In this document: piece by piece, positions 1 to 6,342 of the stretch
How the letters are laid out: each line of letters opens with the position of its first letter
Numbering within the stretch: the stretch's first letter is position 1
Source: a virus
Taxonomy: Duplodnaviria; Heunggongvirae; Uroviricota; Caudoviricetes
Strand: one strand, 5' to 3'
IMG/VR virus record: IMGVR_UViG_3300014515_000023
DNA length: 9,984 bases
The notes under the pieces: generated by a model
Database searches by the model: none
What the model was told of the DNA's origin: nothing
Seen by the model: only the letters and a program-made list of their open reading frames with translations
Position numbers and translations under genes: made by a program

Positions 1-83
1 AACCTGAGGAGTAAGAGACCTGGCGGGGGAGAAATCCCTCGCCACCTCTGATGAGTCAGGCATCCTCAATGCACCCGCGCTTA

Positions 84-103
84 ACCCGCTTCGGCGGGTT
101 TTT
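84..103 (+). terminator. Rho-independent terminator hairpin upstream of the cassette
   Basis: Stem CCCGC (85-89), loop TTCG, stem GCGGG (94-98), followed by T5 (99-103). It is a near-identical direct copy of the hairpin at 1949-1968. Confidence 0.6.
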
Positions 104-118
104 CTAGCATCTATCTGG

Positions 119-147
119 TTGACAAAGTCTATGTTAAATGGAAATAT
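119..147 (+). promoter_or_regulatory. Putative sigma70 promoter for the two-gene cassette
   Basis: Perfect -35 TTGACA at 119-124, 17-nt spacer, weak -10-like AAATAT at 142-147. A second GGTTGACA lies at 148-155. RBS AAGGA at 166-170 sits about 10 nt before the ATG at 181. The -10 is weak, so this is tentative. Confidence 0.3.
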
Positions 148-180
148 GGTTGACACCAAAACAACAAGGATATTACGGTC

Positions 181-795
181 ATGCAGAATTTATCTCAACA
201 GTTGTTAGAAGCATATGACAAGGAGTGCCGCAAAGAGCTTTCGATCGCGTTAGCACAGGCTTATCTTCATTCGCATATGAAGGCAAAAGAGTTTGGTTCT
301 TTTTGGGCTCAAGCACAGTCATATTTGCGCTGGTTTTATGCCGATGCATTGCTTGAGAATGCGGCTAAGCGTGTGGGGCTGGATTTTGAAGTCGGTAGCA
401 ATGCTGCTAAAAATTGTAAACACATTGCGATTCACTCGAACAACTGGAAAATGACGGCACATCATTTATCGGGTAATGCGCCACTTCCTAAGCAGGCATT
501 GTATAGAGCTGTTTACGCTAATCAAAATTATGAATTGAATTTTGGGGATGAAAATGCCGACTCCCTGGATGGGAGAGCGTCTGGTGGACATGTTTATATG
601 TTACATGATGGCAGTAATCAGCACTTGTCCAAACTGAATTTAACTGTTCCTTCTTCGGATAATTACGGGATTCTTTATACTGAGTCTTTACCAATTATGA
701 CGATGGTAGAAGTTGAAGCAGAAAATGTGGATTCTGAGATTGAAGATAAAATCAAGATTCTTACCGAACAAATAATTAAATCACAGCAATCATGA
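181..795 (+). CDS. Hypothetical protein, 204 aa, first gene of the cassette; no domain recognised
   Basis: Clean ORF with an RBS and an upstream promoter-like site. Its stop TGA (793-795) overlaps the ATG (792-794) of the next gene, which suggests translational coupling. AT-richer than the flanking phage genes by eye. Acidic C-terminal tail. I recognise no catalytic motif. Confidence 0.75.
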   Translation: MQNLSQQLLEAYDKECRKELSIALAQAYLHSHMKAKEFGSFWAQAQSYLRWFYADALLENAAKRVGLDFEVGSNAAKNCKHIAIHSNNWKMTAHHLSGNAPLPKQALYRAVYANQNYELNFGDENADSLDGRASGGHVYMLHDGSNQHLSKLNLTVPSSDNYGILYTESLPIMTMVEVEAENVDSEIEDKIKILTEQIIKSQQS

Positions 796-1937
796 GCATG
801 AATATCGCACAAACACCATTTACTGATAAATCGTTTAATCCTCGTCGCCTTGAGGAGGCAAGAGAGGCAAAAGGGTTGACGATGGCTGAACTTGCCAGAG
901 TGCTCAATATTTCAAGACAAGCTATTTCGTCATTTGAGAAGGGGTTGAAGTCTCCCTCTGCTGATACACTTTCTGCAATAGCCAAGGTGTTAGGATTTCC
1001 AGAACGATTTTTCTTAGCCTCCAGTGCTTCTCCATCTCTGGAGGGGGCGATTCATTTTAGAAGTCGTTCAACTGCGACCAAAAAGGCTCGAGTTACAGGG
1101 AAAACACGTGGGCGTTGGGCGGCATTAATATTGGATGAATGTCTAAAATATGCTCAATTACCAGATGTGGTTCTGCCTGAATTCGATATTATTGATTTTG
1201 AGGTTCTGTCTCTATCTGATATTGAGGATATGTCCACCCAATTAAGGCGTTTTTGGGGGTTAGGTGATGGTCCAATACTCAATTTAACTAGACTTGTTGA
1301 AAATAAAGGAATCGTGGTTTCTCATTTACCTTCTGGTGAGAAAGTTGATGCCTTTTCGTTCTGGCATAATGGGCGGCCTTTAATTATGTTAGATAGCTCG
1401 AAGACGGCTGTTCGCATGCGATTTAGTCTTGCTCATGAACTTGGCCATTTAATTATGCATAGGGCAGTGGAGGATGACTACCTGAATGATAAAGAATTAT
1501 TCGACCTAGTGGAGTTGCAGGCCGATTATTTTGCCTCCAGCTTTTTAATGCCAGCCACGACTTTCGGGCGTGAATTTTATAGTCCAAATTTATCAGCGTT
1601 AGAACGATTAAAACTACGTTGGATTACATCTATCGGTAGTATTGCCATGAGGAGTCATAGCCTTAAGTTAATTAGCGATAATCAGAAAAGCTATATATTT
1701 AAGCAATTAGCGCCATTCCATCGTAGGGAGCCGTTAGATGATGCAATCCCAAAAGAAGAGCCTGAGTTACTTAATAAGTTACTTTTACTTCTTGATAAGC
1801 ATTCAATCATAAAGGTAACTGAGTTAACTGATATCTTTGCTCTTCCTTTAAATGAGTTATCTGCAATTACACGATTTAAAGAATCAGATATGATTCATTC
1901 TGACAATGTTATTTCATTTACCATAAAACAAAAATAA
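792..1937 (+). CDS. Fused XRE-family HTH and ImmA/IrrE-type (COG2856, peptidase M78-like) zinc metallopeptidase, 381 aa
   Basis: N-terminal segment (residues about 20-75, GLTMAELARVLNISRQAISSFEKG) matches the XRE/Cro-C1 helix-turn-helix pattern. HEXXH zinc motif HELGH at residues 215-219 (nt 1434-1448) sits in the context SLAHELGHLIMH typical of ImmA/IrrE peptidases. A C-terminal extension of about 150 aa has unknown function. Followed by a terminator. Confidence 0.85.
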   Translation: MSMNIAQTPFTDKSFNPRRLEEAREAKGLTMAELARVLNISRQAISSFEKGLKSPSADTLSAIAKVLGFPERFFLASSASPSLEGAIHFRSRSTATKKARVTGKTRGRWAALILDECLKYAQLPDVVLPEFDIIDFEVLSLSDIEDMSTQLRRFWGLGDGPILNLTRLVENKGIVVSHLPSGEKVDAFSFWHNGRPLIMLDSSKTAVRMRFSLAHELGHLIMHRAVEDDYLNDKELFDLVELQADYFASSFLMPATTFGREFYSPNLSALERLKLRWITSIGSIAMRSHSLKLISDNQKSYIFKQLAPFHRREPLDDAIPKEEPELLNKLLLLLDKHSIIKVTELTDIFALPLNELSAITRFKESDMIHSDNVISFTIKQK

Positions 1938-1948
1938 TTCTCATTCAT

Positions 1949-1968
1949 ACCCGCCTCGGCGGGTTTTT
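1949..1968 (+). terminator. Rho-independent terminator downstream of the cassette
   Basis: ACCCGCCTCGGCGGG followed by T5 then GTTTT. Differs by one nucleotide from the hairpin at 84-103. Confidence 0.6.
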
Positions 1969-2043
1969 GTTTTACGTATTCTGGTTTACAATCCACAGGC
2001 CAGCCTGAACAACTGGCACCTGCTGCGCCAGCAGAGACAACCG

Positions 2044-2322
2044 ATGGCGCACGATACCAAATTATACAATTCTGATGATTCTGCCGTCTTTGCCAGCAGG
2101 CGCGGACGGTGTTTTCACGCATTCAAATCTGACTGGTACCAGCATCCCCCATGCACTGAAGAACAGGCCGAATGGCTCATTCAGTGTTACCGCAGGCGCG
2201 GATGCGAGGTTAAAAAAGCCCTTAGCCTCGACTACCGTCACTGGATAATCTCCGTCAGGCTCCCTTACTCCGAACGGCCAGCGCGTCCGTCCCGCACATT
2301 CCAGCAACGGATCTGGAGGTAA
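2044..2322 (+). CDS. Hypothetical phage protein, 92 aa
   Basis: ORF in the same orientation as the operon. Its stop TAA (2320-2322) lies immediately before the GTG start (2324) of the next gene and overlaps that gene's GGAGG RBS. No strong RBS of its own; the reading frame stays open upstream through the terminator, so the true start is uncertain. Confidence 0.4.
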   Translation: MAHDTKLYNSDDSAVFASRRGRCFHAFKSDWYQHPPCTEEQAEWLIQCYRRRGCEVKKALSLDYRHWIISVRLPYSERPARPSRTFQQRIWR

Positions 2323-2323
2323 T

Positions 2324-3379
2324 GTGCGGGTATTACTTCGACCTGTTCTGGTACCGGAACTCGGTCTGGTTATCGTTAAGCCAGGCCGTGAATCAATGTC
2401 AGCATTCCATAACGGCAGAATACTGGTGGAGCCGGAACCAAAAAGCATGCGTAATCTGCCGTCCGGGGTCGTTCCTGCCGCTCGCCAGCCGCTGGTGGAA
2501 GACAAAACATTGCTGCCGTTTTTCAGTAACGCACGGGGGATTCGTGCTGCTGGTGGTGCTGGTGCATTGTCTGACTGGCTGTTGCGCCATATTAAATCCT
2601 GCCAGTGGCCACACGGCGATTATCATCACAGCGAAACCGTCATTCACCGTTATGGTACCGGCGCAATGGTGTTGTGCTGGCACTGCGACAACCAGCTGCG
2701 TGACCAGACATCCGAATCACTCGAGCAACTTGCTCATCAAAACCTGTCAGCATGGATGATTGACGTCATCGGTCACGCAATAAGCGGTACGCAGGAGCGT
2801 GAATTATCTCTGGCTGAATTATCCTGGTGGGCGGTCCGCAATCAGGTGGCGGACGCGCTACCGGAAGCGGTATTACGTCGTTCGCTGGGGTTGCGTGCGG
2901 AAAAAATCCGCTCAATGTACCGTGAAAGCGACATCGTACCGGGAGAGCAGACCGCCACCAGCATACTGAAGCAGCGCACAAAAAATCTTGCGCCGCTGCC
3001 TCACGCCCACCAGCAAAACCCGCCACAGGAAAAGACGGTGGTCAGCATTGCTGTTGATCCGGAGTCACCGGCTCAGTATCTCCAGCGCCAGAAACCACAA
3101 CGGGAAGAGATGCCTGTATACACGCGCTGGGTAAAAACGCAGAAATGCATGACGTGCGGTAATCAGGCAGATGATCCGCATCACATCATTGGTCATGGAC
3201 TGGGAGGGATGGGAACAAAGGCTGATGATTTGTTTGTTATTCCGCTGTGCCGTAAATGTCATAACGAACTGCACGCCGGGGTAAAAGATTTTGAAGAAAA
3301 ACACGGCAGCCAGCTGTTGTTGCTGATTCGTTTTTTAATGCACGCGAGAAATTCGGGTGTCCTGAAGTGGAAAGCATGA
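2324..3379 (+). CDS. DUF968-like (YdfU-like) prophage protein with two Cys/His-rich clusters, 351 aa
   Basis: GTG start preceded by GGAGG (2310-2314). C-terminal cluster C275-x2-C278, H286-H287, H291, C309-x2-C312-H313, H317 (nt about 3146-3274). N-terminal cluster C93, H97, HH101-102, C118-WH-C121. Sits immediately upstream of rusA. The family call is from memory of Qin-prophage YdfU. Confidence 0.65.
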   Translation: MRVLLRPVLVPELGLVIVKPGRESMSAFHNGRILVEPEPKSMRNLPSGVVPAARQPLVEDKTLLPFFSNARGIRAAGGAGALSDWLLRHIKSCQWPHGDYHHSETVIHRYGTGAMVLCWHCDNQLRDQTSESLEQLAHQNLSAWMIDVIGHAISGTQERELSLAELSWWAVRNQVADALPEAVLRRSLGLRAEKIRSMYRESDIVPGEQTATSILKQRTKNLAPLPHAHQQNPPQEKTVVSIAVDPESPAQYLQRQKPQREEMPVYTRWVKTQKCMTCGNQADDPHHIIGHGLGGMGTKADDLFVIPLCRKCHNELHAGVKDFEEKHGSQLLLLIRFLMHARNSGVLKWKA

Positions 3380-3745
3380 ATGACTGAACGCATAGAATTT
3401 GTTTTGCCTTACCCGCCAACGGTGAACACTTACTGGCGACGTCGTGGCAGCACATATTTTGTATCAAAAGTCGGTGAGCGTTATCGCCGTGATGTGGCGC
3501 TTATTGTTCGCCAGCAGCAACTGAAATTAAACCTGTCCGGAAGGCCGGCAATAGAAATTATTGCAGAGCCACCGGATAAGCGCCGTCGTGACCTGGACAA
3601 TATCCTGAAGGCACCACTGGATGTACTGACGCATGCGGGGCTGCTCATAGACGACGAGCAGTTTGATGAAATTAATATTGTGCGCGGTCAGCTTGTTCCT
3701 GGTGGGCGGTTGGGGATAAAAATCACAGAACTGGAGTACGCATGA
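3380..3745 (+). CDS. rusA: RusA-family Holliday junction resolvase, 121 aa
   Basis: Size and motifs match E. coli RusA as recalled: LPYPPTVNTYWRRRG near the N-terminus, the catalytic-region RRRDLDNILKAPLDVL, and GGRLGIKITE near the C-terminus. Stop overlaps the next gene's start (ATGA at 3742-3745). Confidence 0.9.
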   Translation: MTERIEFVLPYPPTVNTYWRRRGSTYFVSKVGERYRRDVALIVRQQQLKLNLSGRPAIEIIAEPPDKRRRDLDNILKAPLDVLTHAGLLIDDEQFDEINIVRGQLVPGGRLGIKITELEYA

Positions 3746-4431
3746 ATAACCAGTATTTACAGTTTGTTCGTGAGCAACTCATGATTGCCACCGCCGATTT
3801 GAGTGGATCAACAAAAGGGCAGCTTGAGGCCTGGCAGGAGAATGCCATGTTTGATACAGGGCGTTACAGGCGTAAAAAAATCCGGTACCGCGATGAAGTG
3901 ACTGGAAAAATGATAACGCGGGATAATCCACCAATCCCGGGAAAGCAATCGCTGGCGAAGGGGGTGTCAATTCCTCTCGTCAGTCCGGTTGAGTTTTCGA
4001 CATCATCGTGGCGGCGGGCTGTTCTGTCTCTTGAAGAACATCATAAAGCCTGGTTGTTGTGGTGTTACAGCGGGAGTATTTGTTGGGAATATCAGATCGC
4101 GATAACGCAGTGGGTGTGGAATGAATTTAAAACCCGGTACGGCACCAGAAAAATTGCAGGGAAAACGCAGGAGCGCGTGAAGAAGTTGATCTGGCTGGCG
4201 GCACAGGATGTCAGAGGATGGATTACCGGGTGTGAGGTCTACCAGAGACAGGAGCTTGCCAGACTGTGTGGAGTTAAGCCTGATAACTGGAGCCATAATT
4301 ATGCGAACTACTGGCGTGAGATGTGCGATATTTTTAAGAGTCTCGATAGAGAATCTGTGATTTGCACCGTGAAAATAAGAGCGCAACAAAAAGCGACTTT
4401 TTCACGACGAGATATTGCAAAAGTCAATTAA
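3742..4431 (+). CDS. Putative late-gene antiterminator Q (phage 82/Qin quuQ-like class), 229 aa
   Basis: Position is canonical: immediately after rusA and immediately before a promoter-like region plus a short-transcript terminator. Translationally coupled to rusA. The family assignment is by synteny and recollection, not by a motif I can verify. Confidence 0.55.
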   Translation: MNNQYLQFVREQLMIATADLSGSTKGQLEAWQENAMFDTGRYRRKKIRYRDEVTGKMITRDNPPIPGKQSLAKGVSIPLVSPVEFSTSSWRRAVLSLEEHHKAWLLWCYSGSICWEYQIAITQWVWNEFKTRYGTRKIAGKTQERVKKLIWLAAQDVRGWITGCEVYQRQELARLCGVKPDNWSHNYANYWREMCDIFKSLDRESVICTVKIRAQQKATFSRRDIAKVN

Positions 4432-6092: not shown

Positions 6093-6168
6093 GGCCCTTT
6101 AGCTCAGTGGTGAGAGCGAGCGACTCATAATCGCCAGGTCGCTGGTTCAAATCCAGCAAGGGCCACCA
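6093..6168 (+). tRNA. ileZ: tRNA-Ile2-like, anticodon CAU (lysidine type), 76 nt with encoded CCA
   Basis: Manual cloverleaf: acceptor GGCCCTT/AAGGGCC, D-arm GCTC-AGTGGTGA-GAGC, anticodon loop CTCATAA, T-loop TTCAAAT, then A-CCA. Closely resembles E. coli ileX as I recall it. A Met identity cannot be excluded from sequence alone. Confidence 0.85.
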
Positions 6169-6175
6169 TCACATA

Positions 6176-6252
6176 CCGCCATTAGCTCATCAGGAAAGAG
6201 CGCCAGCTTTCGAAGCTGGTTGCGCGGAGTTCGGGTCCCCGAAGGCGGTCCA
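6176..6252 (+). tRNA. tRNA-Arg, anticodon UCG, with non-canonical features
   Basis: Anticodon stem CCAGC/GCTGG is perfect with loop TTTCGAA (anticodon TCG). D-arm GCTC...GAGC. The acceptor stem has one A-A mismatch. The T stem has one A-C mismatch. The T-loop TTCGGGT has G at the usually invariant A58 position. Discriminator T, then CCA. Confidence 0.6.
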
Positions 6253-6265
6253 TTATCTGTATCCT

Positions 6266-6342
6266 GCGTTGTTAGCTCAGCCGGACAGAGCAATTGCCTT
6301 CTAAGCAATCGGTCACTGGTTCGAATCCAGTACAACGCGCCA
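6266..6342 (+). tRNA. tRNA-Arg, anticodon UCU, 77 nt with encoded CCA
   Basis: Perfect acceptor GCGTTGT/ACAACGC, anticodon loop CTTCTAA, T-loop TTCGAAT, discriminator G, CCA. Architecture is like E. coli argU. Confidence 0.85.

What the first reader, a model, noticed from the sequence alone, without database searches (positions are those of the whole stretch)
84..1968. Near-identical 20-nt terminator hairpins flank the cassette as direct repeats
ACCCGCTTCGGCGGGTTTTT (84-103) and ACCCGCCTCGGCGGGTTTTT (1949-1968) differ at a single loop position. They function as intrinsic terminators, but their identity on both sides of an AT-richer insert looks like a recombination footprint: either the cassette was inserted at a pre-existing terminator, duplicating it, or it is a terminator-flanked module exchangeable by homologous recombination. 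Such insulation is typical of morons.
Basis: seen in the sequence. Interest (0 to 1): 0.45.

Follow-up and report, generated by a model that had tools for sequence, protein, structure and literature searches.

The report
Matching terminators bracket a prophage defence cassette
Two almost identical transcription-terminator hairpins flank a toxin-antitoxin defence cassette in an E. coli lambdoid prophage; one ends the resident hok gene and the other is most likely the cassette's own, and related phages show that such look-alike terminators mark the exact points where accessory genes are gained and lost.

Summary
In detail: ACCCGCTTCGGCGGGTTTTT (84-103) and ACCCGCCTCGGCGGGTTTTT (1949-1968) differ by one loop base and bracket a 39.6% GC insert between 54-58% GC flanks.

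- **Left hairpin:** the 3' terminator of a hok/sok toxin mRNA.
- **Insert:** a self-contained RosmerTA-type toxin-antitoxin defence moron (rmrT-like 181-795, rmrA 792-1937).
- **Right hairpin:** its terminator, 11 nt after the stop codon.

Related phages with an empty site carry one hairpin. At least five different cassettes in this slot, and several in a second slot of Salmonella-type prophages, are bracketed by two copies. Homology to the empty allele always breaks at the hairpin.

The right copy is probably not a duplicate of the left.
- RosmerTA, Doc and methylase modules carry this hairpin type as their own terminator in non-hok contexts.
- The 21-mer is a generic terminator across Proteobacteria.

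Best reading: successive accessory units end in look-alike terminators, and these act as short-homology joints for module gain, loss and exchange. This resembles the PeSL cassettes of T4-type phages. In the window allele the repeat is composite (hairpin plus a TCTGGTTKACAA box), so the crossover point is ambiguous.

The kind of event is known, the variant is new, and interest is moderate.

The parts
1..14 (+). 3' end of the hok (hokD-type) toxin CDS, stop codon TAA at 12-14
   Evidence: The window start aligns to the end of the annotated HokD CDS in phage Tritos and of hokD in E. coli LF82. Rfam sok (RF01794, 111.7 bits) lies just upstream in L001.
15..83 (+). hok mRNA 3' UTR, including an fbi-like element at about 63-79 (CCTCAATGCACCCGCGC) complementary to the mRNA 5' end
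   Evidence: Strong fold of 1-110 (-46 kcal/mol, z -3.35). Complementarity to GCGGGTGCTTGAGG in L001 was read directly (inference from known hok/sok biology). The region is conserved in 120 or more viral contigs.
84..103 (+). Left hairpin: the resident intrinsic terminator of the hok mRNA (stem 83-89/94-100, loop TTCG, T-run)
   Evidence: Present in empty-site alleles as the only copy.
104..113 (+). Short spacer (104-113 CTAGCATCTA; its CTAGCAT resembles the CCTAGCAT spacer of empty alleles)
   Evidence: Comparison with empty alleles L002 and L090 and with L003. Ambiguous, because L017 has GCAT at the same place.
114..155 (+). Cassette control region: TCTGGTTGACAA box (114-125), -35 TTGACA (119-124), TG (139-140), -10 AAATAT (142-147), and two direct GGTTGACA boxes (117-124, 148-155)
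   Evidence: Conserved upstream of RosmerTA homologues down to 51% protein identity in unrelated contexts. Promoter and operator function is inferred; the simple promoter scan did not list it.
181..795 (+). rmrT-like toxin gene (204 aa)
   Evidence: PADLOC RmrT models, best E 7.5e-10 over a partial length. phrog_35814 full length. No Pfam family.
792..1937 (+). rmrA antitoxin gene (381 aa): XRE-type HTH plus ImmA/IrrE Zn-peptidase
   Evidence: PADLOC RmrA 5.5e-102. Pfam HTH_3 2.4e-16 and Peptidase_M78 9.7e-19. HEXXH motif AHELGH read in the translation of the 93% variant.
1949..1968 (+). Right hairpin: terminator of the rmrTA operon (stem 1949-1954/1959-1964, loop CTCG, T-run), 11 nt after the rmrA stop codon
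   Evidence: Positionally equivalent to the cassette's own terminator in L017. The same hairpin type is native to RosmerTA cassettes elsewhere.
1969..1991 (+). Spacer GTTTTACGTAT (1969-1979), seen only with RosmerTA alleles, followed by the slot box TCTGGTTTACAA (1980-1991)
   Evidence: The box is present in empty alleles.
1999..2017 (+). Conserved stem-loop GCCAG-CCTGAACAA-CTGGC at the start of the downstream unit; right border of the variable slot
   Evidence: Present in all slot alleles after a TAYAAT-like box.
2044..2322 (+). 92-aa ORF (phrog_1212), the first gene of the conserved right flank (then ydfU 2324-3379, rusA 3380-3745, Q 3742-4431)
   Evidence: Annotated in Tritos, LF82 and other phages.

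Best explanation
The two hairpins are the intrinsic terminators of two successive, independent transcription units.

- The left one (84-103) is the resident 3' terminator of the hok/sok toxin mRNA.
- The right one (1949-1968) is the terminator of a RosmerTA-type toxin-antitoxin defence moron that sits between hok and the 92-aa ORF/ydfU/rusA/Q genes.

Both belong to one generic terminator class (CCCGC-YTCG-GCGGG plus a U-run). Many accessory modules of lambdoid prophages carry this class as their own 3' end; hok, RosmerTA, Doc and a DNA methylase do.

Because neighbouring modules end in 14-31 bp of near-identical sequence, these terminators act as short-homology joints. Recombination between them, by phage Red/RecT-type or host enzymes, inserts, deletes or swaps the module between them. 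It could run through unequal crossovers between phage genomes or through integration of an excised circle. The result is either one hairpin (empty site) or two (filled site).

Shown here: the anatomy of the hairpins, the empty-site and filled-site polymorphism, the junction positions, and the hairpin being native to several cassette types.

Inferred: that homology, rather than coincidence, guided the joins; which enzymes act; and whether there is a circular intermediate.

For the window allele the repeat is composite (hairpin, dissimilar spacer, TCTGGTTKACAA box), so the crossover may have lain in either box.
For: 1. Terminator anatomy and energies. The left hairpin closes the hok 3' UTR next to a sok/hok locus. 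The right hairpin lies 11 nt after the rmrA stop codon.
2. The cassette is RosmerTA-like and self-contained, with a conserved promoter/operator and its own terminator in every context.
3. Empty alleles carry one hairpin: 37 of 120 hok-anchored contigs. Another 13 carry a second T-like hairpin, around 5 different cassettes: two RosmerTA subtypes, an HTH + M78 pair, Fic/Doc, and a lipoprotein-like gene.
4. A second, unrelated slot behaves the same way: about 35 single-hairpin alleles and 4 kinds of insert bracketed by two copies.
5. Junction analysis of 10 alleles: right homology to the empty allele starts at -2 to +3 nt from the hairpin's first base, left homology ends 17-30 nt later, and the duplicated target is 14-31 nt.
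6. The hairpin is native to cassettes. L154 homology with the hok-slot allele ends exactly at AACCCGCTTCGGCGGGTTT. Distant RosmerTA homologues end in ATCCCGCTTCGGCGGGAT. Doc homologues without an upstream copy end in T-like hairpins. An intact methylase gene is followed by AAAACCCGCTTCGGCGGGTTTTTT.
7. The same cassette is joined to two different tails immediately after the hairpin (L143 versus L149).
8. In 1.3 Mb of related prophage DNA the hairpin occurs almost only at these slot positions.
9. The repeat length sits just below to at the minimal efficient pairing segment quoted for Red-beta, 23-27 bp (PMC3945230).
10. There is a precedent for promoter/terminator repeats mediating module shuffling and mini-circles in T4-type phages (PMC2839356).
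Against: - Among loci carrying the window-type cassette, the mosaic breakpoint with diverged backgrounds lies near 2065, not at the hairpin. This allele therefore reflects one ancestral event and gives no independent evidence for crossover in the hairpin.
- The spacer after the right copy (GTTTTACGTAT) is found only with RosmerTA cassettes and differs from an empty allele of the same flank lineage (L027). The left copy keeps a slot-like CTAGCAT. Together these point to a crossover at the TCTGGTTKACAA box, which would make the hairpin similarity incidental here.
- About 30-40% of RosmerTA contexts natively carry this terminator type, so a chance pairing with hok's terminator is not improbable for any single cassette.
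- 14-23 bp is below or at the limit of efficient homologous recombination.
- The lipoprotein-like cassette has no such terminator in other contexts, so at least that allele needs another origin for its second copy.
- No excision circles or recombination were observed; all evidence is comparative.
Confidence: 0.6

Rival explanations
1. Coincidence of a generic terminator. hok and the RosmerTA cassette each happen to use the same very common 'optimal' UUCG-type terminator. The cassette arrived by illegitimate recombination, or by recombination at the TCTGGTTKACAA box, and the hairpin similarity played no part.
For: - The exact 21-mer occurs in at least 120 species-representative genomes after unrelated genes, and only 1 of 124 sites is hok-linked.
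- RosmerTA and Doc cassettes carry it natively.
- In the window allele the left copy keeps a slot-like spacer and the right copy has a cassette-specific spacer, which fits a crossover at the -35-like box.
- The two copies differ in the loop.
Against: - Across 10 alleles and 7 inserts in two slots, the junctions coincide with the hairpin within a few bases. That is unlikely if the joins were unrelated to it.
- The L058-type cassette is joined to different tails exactly after the hairpin.
- Inserts whose own terminator differs (L017, lipoprotein) are still closed by a second copy of the local hairpin.
Confidence: 0.24
2. True target duplication. The cassette was inserted at the hok terminator by a process that copies the target, such as staggered breaks at an extruded hairpin or cruciform, replication template switching, or a transposition-like event. 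The right copy would then descend from the left.
For: - The empty site has one copy and filled sites have two.
- In L017 both copies share the local loop variant TGCG as a perfect 21-mer.
- The lipoprotein cassette is flanked by a 28-nt duplication that extends beyond the hairpin, and it lacks such a terminator elsewhere.
- L221 has two copies only 25 nt apart.
Against: - There are no conserved cassette ends, inverted repeats, transposase or integrase.
- The duplicated length varies from 14 to 31 nt.
- For RosmerTA, Doc and the methylase remnant, the second copy is demonstrably the module's own terminator in other contexts.
- The window copies differ in the loop and in the following spacer.
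Confidence: 0.12
3. Site-specific element. The hairpin is an attachment or recognition site, analogous to integron attC sites or to terminator-targeting IS elements and group II introns, used by a dedicated recombinase acting in trans.
For: Recurrent use of the same hairpin as the insertion point in two slots, plus small palindromic insertions inside the hairpin loop in L119, L097 and L215.
Against: - No recombinase gene is linked to the slot or the cassettes, and the window ORFs are accounted for by ordinary phage functions.
- The cassettes share no end motifs.
- The hairpin is a generic terminator far beyond these phages.
Confidence: 0.04

Closest known systems
Morons of lambdoid phages (HK97/HK022 definition; reviewed in 'The moron comes of age', PMC3594210)
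   Same: An extra transcription unit with its own promoter and terminator and a deviating GC content, absent from related phages and inserted between two conserved genes.
   Different: The moron concept does not specify how the unit is joined. Here the moron's terminator is a near-copy of the upstream resident terminator, and the joins fall at that hairpin in many alleles.
PeSL mobile regulatory cassettes of T4-type phages (Arbiol et al. 2010, PMC2839356; PMC4122927)
   Same: Short repeated promoter-plus-terminator stem-loop units flank non-essential ORFs in hyperplastic regions. Recombination between those repeats explains the insertions, deletions and replacements between close relatives. 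The composite 'hairpin + -35-like box' repeat in the window has the same logic.
   Different: These are temperate lambdoid prophages rather than virulent T4-type phages. The motif sequence is unrelated and the order is terminator then promoter box. The repeats are only 14-31 bp, and the hairpin is a generic bacterial terminator rather than a phage-specific motif. Mini-circles have not been looked for.
Relaxed homologous recombination by Rad52-like phage recombinases as the source of lambdoid mosaicism (De Paepe et al. 2014, PMC3945230)
   Same: Mosaic joints arise at short stretches of identity between otherwise unrelated or diverged phage DNA. The quoted minimal pairing segment for Red-beta is 23-27 bp, close to the hairpin plus T-run.
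   Different: That work measured exchange over regions hundreds of bp long, at 67-96% mean identity in the passages read (88-96% for the lambda substrates). Here the proposed homology is a single terminator at or below the minimal length, and nothing was measured.
RosmerTA toxin-antitoxin defence system (Millman et al. 2022 preprint 10.1101/2022.05.11.491447; Ernits et al. 2023, PMC10440598)
   Same: A two-gene operon: a toxin of unknown fold, followed by an antitoxin with an HTH and an ImmA-type Zn-peptidase.
   Different: The toxin matches RmrT models only weakly (E 7.5e-10, partial). Neither toxicity nor defence was tested for this variant.
hok/sok type I toxin-antitoxin loci (hokD of the Qin prophage)
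   Same: The left hairpin is the terminal stem-loop of a hok-type mRNA, downstream of an fbi-like element. sok is detected upstream in the identical phage Tritos, and hokD is annotated in LF82.
   Different: Nothing differs for hok itself. The point is that its terminator doubles as the left border of a hypervariable cargo slot.

Membership tests
Intrinsic (Rho-independent) terminator | G+C-rich stem of about 5-10 bp with a short loop | tested here: met
   The left has a 7-bp stem and UUCG loop at -12.4 kcal/mol. The right has a 6-bp stem and CUCG loop at -12.1 kcal/mol. The right copy is also listed by the terminator scan.
Intrinsic (Rho-independent) terminator | U-run immediately 3' of the stem | tested here: met
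   TTTTT follows both stems (positions 99-103 and 1964-1968).
Intrinsic (Rho-independent) terminator | Located at the 3' end of a transcription unit | tested here: met
   The left closes the hok 3' UTR. The right lies 11 nt after the rmrA stop codon.
Intrinsic (Rho-independent) terminator | Transcripts end there in vivo | not testable with these tools
   Needs Term-seq or 3'-RACE.
Moron | Present in some and absent from other closely related phages at the same position | tested here: met
   Empty alleles L002 and 36 others; filled alleles L001 and L005-L016.
Moron | Own terminator | tested here: met
   A terminator directly follows rmrA in every homologous context.
Moron | Own promoter | tested here: inconclusive
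   A conserved TTGACA, a 17-nt spacer and a TG-extended AAATAT lie upstream of all homologues. The consensus scan did not report it, and there are no expression data.
Moron | Base composition unlike the surrounding genes | tested here: met
   GC 0.396 against 0.54-0.58.
RosmerTA defence system | Antitoxin with an HTH plus a Zn-peptidase (ImmA/M78) domain | tested here: met
   RmrA 5.5e-102, HTH_3 and Peptidase_M78.
RosmerTA defence system | Adjacent toxin gene (RmrT; the family is diverse) | tested here: inconclusive
   Only weak, partial RmrT matches (7.5e-10). The gene order and the 4-nt overlap fit.
RosmerTA defence system | Toxicity neutralised by the antitoxin; protection from phage | not testable with these tools
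   Needs experiments.
PeSL-type mobile regulatory cassette | Repeated composite of a promoter and a terminator stem-loop flanking non-essential ORFs | tested here: inconclusive
   A hairpin plus a -35-like TCTGGTTKACAA box occurs on both sides. Most other two-hairpin alleles share only the hairpin and T-run.
PeSL-type mobile regulatory cassette | Indels and replacements between relatives bounded by the repeats | tested here: met
   Junction analysis of 10 alleles in two slots, plus L143 versus L149.
PeSL-type mobile regulatory cassette | Membership in the T4-type PeSL sequence family, in the hyperplastic regions of T4-like genomes | tested here: not met
   The window is a lambdoid prophage region with Q, RusA, ydfU and hok. 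By inference the motif has no relation to T4 early promoters.
PeSL-type mobile regulatory cassette | Excised mini-circles | not testable with these tools
   Needs outward-facing PCR or long-read data from lysates.
Transposable element with target-site duplication | Conserved element ends or terminal inverted repeats, and a transposase | tested here: not met
   The insert ends share no motif, and no transposase is present in the cassette.
Transposable element with target-site duplication | Fixed duplication length | tested here: not met
   14-31 nt across alleles.
hok/sok type I TA locus (context of the left hairpin) | sok antisense RNA/hok leader and the hok CDS upstream of the hairpin | tested here: met
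   Rfam sok at 111.7 bits in L001, which is 98% identical to the window over 1-2398. HokD CDS annotations.

The most novel reading that the evidence does not exclude
A family of near-identical intrinsic terminators (CCCGC-YKCG-GCGGG plus a U-run) works as a portable 'linker' in lambdoid prophages of Enterobacteria. Toxin-antitoxin and defence morons that end in this hairpin are captured, excised (possibly as circles) and swapped at any resident copy. Terminators would then double as recombination sites that define defence-gene hotspots, giving a temperate-phage counterpart of the T4 PeSL system. This would also explain why the hairpin sequence is conserved on cassettes whose proteins have diverged to 55-60% identity.
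Probability: 0.35. Interest if true: 0.6.

Novelty: new variant of a known kind. Interest (0 to 1): 0.42.

Why it matters
How morons and defence systems get into precise intergenic positions of prophages is still argued: homology at short 'boundary' sequences, or random illegitimate joining followed by selection.

This locus gives a well-populated natural series: empty alleles, at least 10 different inserts, and a second slot that behaves the same way. In that series the joins fall on a terminator hairpin that several unrelated cargo modules bring with them.

If terminator homology really guides capture:
- it gives a simple, testable rule for predicting cargo hotspots in lambdoid prophages;
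- it explains why such cargo is transcriptionally insulated on arrival;
- it warns that synthetic constructs which reuse popular UUCG-type terminators create recombination substrates.

If it does not, the finding reduces to an ordinary moron with an ordinary terminator.

Tried and rejected
1. **Mosaic breakpoints within the window-type allele.** Loci with a diverged right flank break at about 2065, not at the hairpin. This allele therefore gives no direct crossover evidence.
2. **Universal flanking repeats around RosmerTA.** Only 4 independent contexts score above controls. I rejected 'terminator-flanked module' as a property of the cassette.
3. **'Rare sequence, therefore duplication'.** The 21-mer is generic across Proteobacteria, so I rejected this argument.
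4. **'Common terminator all over the same phage genomes'.** One search finds it almost only at the slots, so I rejected this too.
5. **Transposon or TSD reading.** I rejected it: there are no common ends and the duplication length varies.
6. **Tandem repeats and promoter scans of the window.** These added nothing specific.
7. **Left-copy tail CTAGCAT as proof of a crossover at the -35 box.** I left this as ambiguous because L017 has GCAT at the same place.
8. **Literature searches.** Searches found no prior description of a hok-terminator cargo slot. The library is incomplete, so absence there is weak evidence.
9. **Not used.** Protein-structure tools and the large homology searches, because the question concerned DNA junctions.
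Full report
**1. Observation**

ACCCGCTTCGGCGGGTTTTT lies at 84-103 and ACCCGCCTCGGCGGGTTTTT at 1949-1968, both on the + strand. They differ at one loop base, T90 versus C1955. With up to three mismatches allowed they are the only matches in the window. The chance expectation is 0.01.

Each folds into a short G+C-rich stem with a tetraloop and a U-run, at -12.4 and -12.1 kcal/mol. The DNA between them is AT-richer: GC is 0.396 for 104-1948, against 0.583 for 1-103 and 0.54 for 1949-2400.

The repeat is longer than reported. After 10-11 dissimilar bases both copies are followed by TCTGGTT(G/T)ACAA, at 114-125 and 1980-1991.

**2. What the parts are**

The window is the early-right to late-regulatory region of a lambdoid prophage. 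In order it contains:
- the end of hok;
- the insert;
- a 92-aa ORF;
- ydfU (DUF968);
- rusA;
- Q;
- a DNA methylase;
- three tRNAs;
- a nanS-like esterase.

Phage Tritos is 98% identical over 1-2398 and annotates HokD immediately upstream. Rfam finds sok there. E. coli LF82 has the same hokD-insert-ydfU module in a Qin-like prophage. The left hairpin therefore closes the hok mRNA, just after a segment complementary to the mRNA 5' end (this rests on established hok/sok biology).

The insert encodes two proteins:
- A 204-aa protein with weak RmrT matches.
- A 381-aa protein with an XRE HTH and an ImmA/IrrE peptidase. It matches RmrA models at 5.5e-102.

That is the RosmerTA layout of a toxin plus a Zn-peptidase antitoxin.

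The region upstream of rmrT is conserved in homologues down to 51% protein identity in unrelated contexts. It has two GGTTGACA boxes, a -35 TTGACA and a TG-extended -10. Every homologue has a terminator right after rmrA. The insert is therefore a self-contained moron in the sense of PMC3594210. It occurs in 41 of 5,426 complete E. coli genomes, once each, at 99% identity or more.

**3.

I fetched 120 viral contigs using a 25-nt anchor in the hok 3' UTR. I classified what lies between hok and the conserved right flank:

| Class | Contigs |
|---|---|
| Empty: one hairpin, followed by GTTTTTTCCTGGCATTCTGGTTTACAAT | 37 |
| Other inserts (mostly rem-type genes) with no second hairpin | 55 |
| Second hairpin present | 13 |
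| Could not be classified | 15 |

The 13 two-hairpin contigs cover five different cargoes:
- the window's RosmerTA;
- a second, canonical RosmerTA subtype (L058 type), flanked by a perfect 23-nt repeat;
- an HTH + M78 pair;
- a Fic/Doc gene;
- a lipoprotein-like gene.

A second slot was found through the 93% variant of the cassette (L017). It lies between a 174-aa ORF and dinI in Salmonella-type prophages. About 35 alleles there have a single hairpin, AACCCGCTGCGGCGGGTTTTT. Four kinds of insert are bracketed by two copies.

I aligned each filled allele to its best empty allele from both sides, for 10 alleles covering 7 inserts. Right-hand homology begins -2 to +3 nt from the hairpin's first base. 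Left-hand homology ends 17-30 nt later. The shared target is therefore 14-31 nt, always the hairpin with or without its T-run.

**4. Is the hairpin rare or common?**

Within 1.3 Mb of related prophage DNA there are 154 CCCGC-N4-GCGGG sites. Nearly all are the hok terminator or a cassette-closing copy, and only two unrelated contexts exist.

Across species-representative genomes the picture is different. It follows tRNA genes and many unrelated coding sequences in Pseudomonas, Serratia, Burkholderiales and Enterobacterales. Only 1 of 124 sites is hok-linked. The sequence is a generic, convergently favoured terminator, so identity alone proves nothing.

**5. Origin of the right-hand copy**

Several results indicate that it belongs to the cassette.
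- L154 carries the L058-type RosmerTA (87% RmrT identity) in a non-hok context. Homology with the hok-slot allele starts at the cassette promoter and ends exactly at AACCCGCTTCGGCGGGTTT.
- More distant homologues (55-64% identity) end in ATCCCGCTTCGGCGGGATTTTTTT or in loop variants of it.
- The window-type variant in L017 has ACCCGC-TTTAT-GCGGGT starting 10 nt after the stop codon. That is positionally equivalent to the window's right hairpin.
- Doc homologues with no upstream copy also end in such hairpins.
- In L017 the second hairpin lies 190 nt beyond the cassette's own terminator. Those 190 nt are the 3' remnant of a phage cytosine methylase gene.
- In Klebsiella phage 5 LV-2017 the intact methylase is followed by AAAACCCGCTTCGGCGGGTTTTTT and then dinI. 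SEN34 has the remnant plus AACCCGCTACGGCGGGTTT.

Flanking repeats are not a general property of RosmerTA. Only four independent contexts score above shifted and reverse-complement controls. The lipoprotein-like cassette is an exception in the other direction: its homologues elsewhere have no such terminator. In the hok slot it is flanked by a 28-nt duplication that extends past the hairpin.

**6. Mechanism**

The best-supported reading is as follows. Successive accessory transcription units of these prophages each end in the same terminator type. These 14-31 bp of near-identity then serve as joints at which modules are deleted, inserted or replaced.

Supporting observations:
- the junction positions;
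- the same cassette joined to two different tails directly after the hairpin, L143 versus L149;
- the existence of both single-copy and double-copy alleles in two slots.

The length sits just below to at the minimal efficient pairing segment quoted for Red-beta, 23-27 bp, and below that for RecA, 31-34 bp (PMC3945230). Rare events over evolutionary time are therefore plausible.

The closest described system is the PeSL cassette of T4-type phages. There, repeated promoter/terminator units bound indels and generate mini-circles (PMC2839356). Two things remain untested inference: whether the route is unequal crossing-over between phage genomes or integration of an excised circle, and which enzymes act.

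**7. Caveats for the window allele itself**

All loci with this cassette share both hairpins and about 100 nt beyond them. Divergence from other backgrounds starts near 2065. The allele therefore reflects one ancestral event.

Three details point away from a crossover in the hairpin:
- The left copy is followed by CTAGCAT, which resembles the slot spacer CCTAGCAT.
- The right copy is followed by GTTTTACGTAT, a spacer seen only with the two RosmerTA cassettes.
- An empty allele of the same right-flank lineage (L027) has the standard spacer instead.

This pattern fits a crossover at the TCTGGTTKACAA box. That box is the cassette's -35 region on the left and the slot box on the right. In that case the hairpin similarity in this particular allele would be incidental.

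About 30-40% of RosmerTA contexts carry the hairpin type natively, so coincidence cannot be dismissed for a single case. My weights are:

| Explanation | Weight |
|---|---|
| Short-homology joint (in the hairpin or the box) | about 0.6 |
| Pure coincidence | about 0.24 |
| True target duplication | about 0.12 |
| Dedicated site-specific system | about 0.04 |

**8.

The terminator, moron and empty-site predictions are borne out. 'Duplication of the terminator' and 'terminator-flanked module' are not the best descriptions: the two hairpins most likely have separate origins, and only the 3' one travels with the cassette.

**9. Novelty and interest**

Morons, hok/sok, RosmerTA and short-homology mosaic joints are all known. 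I did not find a description of two things in the searchable literature (the library is incomplete):
- the hok terminator as the border of a hypervariable cargo slot in lambdoid prophages;
- the same generic terminator recurring as the 3' end of several unrelated cargo modules, and as the exact junction in two slots.

I rate this a new variant of a known kind and of moderate interest.

Noticed in passing
window 6417-6607 and 6885-7094: Two copies of the sRNA family STnc100 (Rfam RF02076, 136 and 165 bits) lie inside 468-nt-spaced direct repeats, downstream of tRNA-Met/Arg/Arg (6093-6342).
   Followed up: no
window 117-155; also L017, L019-L021, L143-L176: RosmerTA cassettes of two subtypes share a 5' control region with two direct GGTTGACA(AA) boxes about 31 nt apart around a -35/-10 pair. 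It is conserved down to 51% protein identity. It is probably the operator of the HTH antitoxin.
   Followed up: partly
L119 and L097 (hok slot), L215 (second slot): Variants of the terminator hairpin carry a 24-30-nt nested palindrome inside the loop, for example ACCCGC|CCATCGCTGTGATCTCTCAGCGTT|TCGGCGGG. The same kind of variant occurs in both slots.
   Followed up: no
L221: Two copies of the second-slot hairpin are separated by only 25 nt. This could be the remnant of a lost cassette or a minimal insertion.
   Followed up: no
L020 2103-2152 and 4091-4140: A 56%-identical RosmerTA homologue in an unrelated context is flanked by a 50-nt direct repeat (84% identity). The repeat is made of a different terminator plus 29 nt of downstream sequence.
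   Followed up: partly
L019 3558-3921: Three to four repeated GCCCGCSACTGAGCGGGCTTTTTTATGCC terminator-like hairpins lie at 40-170-nt intervals downstream of a 66%-identical cassette.
   Followed up: no
window 1985-2017 and all slot alleles: A TAYAAT-like box and the stem-loop GCCAG-CCTGAACAA-CTGGC are conserved at the right border of the slot in every allele, upstream of the 92-aa ORF. This is probably the start of the downstream transcription unit.
   Followed up: no
hok slot alleles L102, L032, L130, L106: Other cargo occupies the same slot without a second hairpin: a YgiW-like OB-fold gene with a different terminator that replaces the hok hairpin, a reverse-oriented ParE/RelE-like TA pair plus a lipoprotein, a weak DUF6414-like pair, and an AT-rich non-coding insert.
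   Followed up: partly
L228, L276, L300, L338 (Serratia, Stutzerimonas, Pseudomonas): The exact 21-mer terminator occurs twice within 150-1000 nt in some unrelated genomes. In Serratia it follows tRNA-like sequences, which suggests local duplications that include the terminator.
   Followed up: no
window 792-795: The rmrT stop codon and the rmrA start codon overlap (ATGA), which is typical of translationally coupled TA pairs.
   Followed up: no
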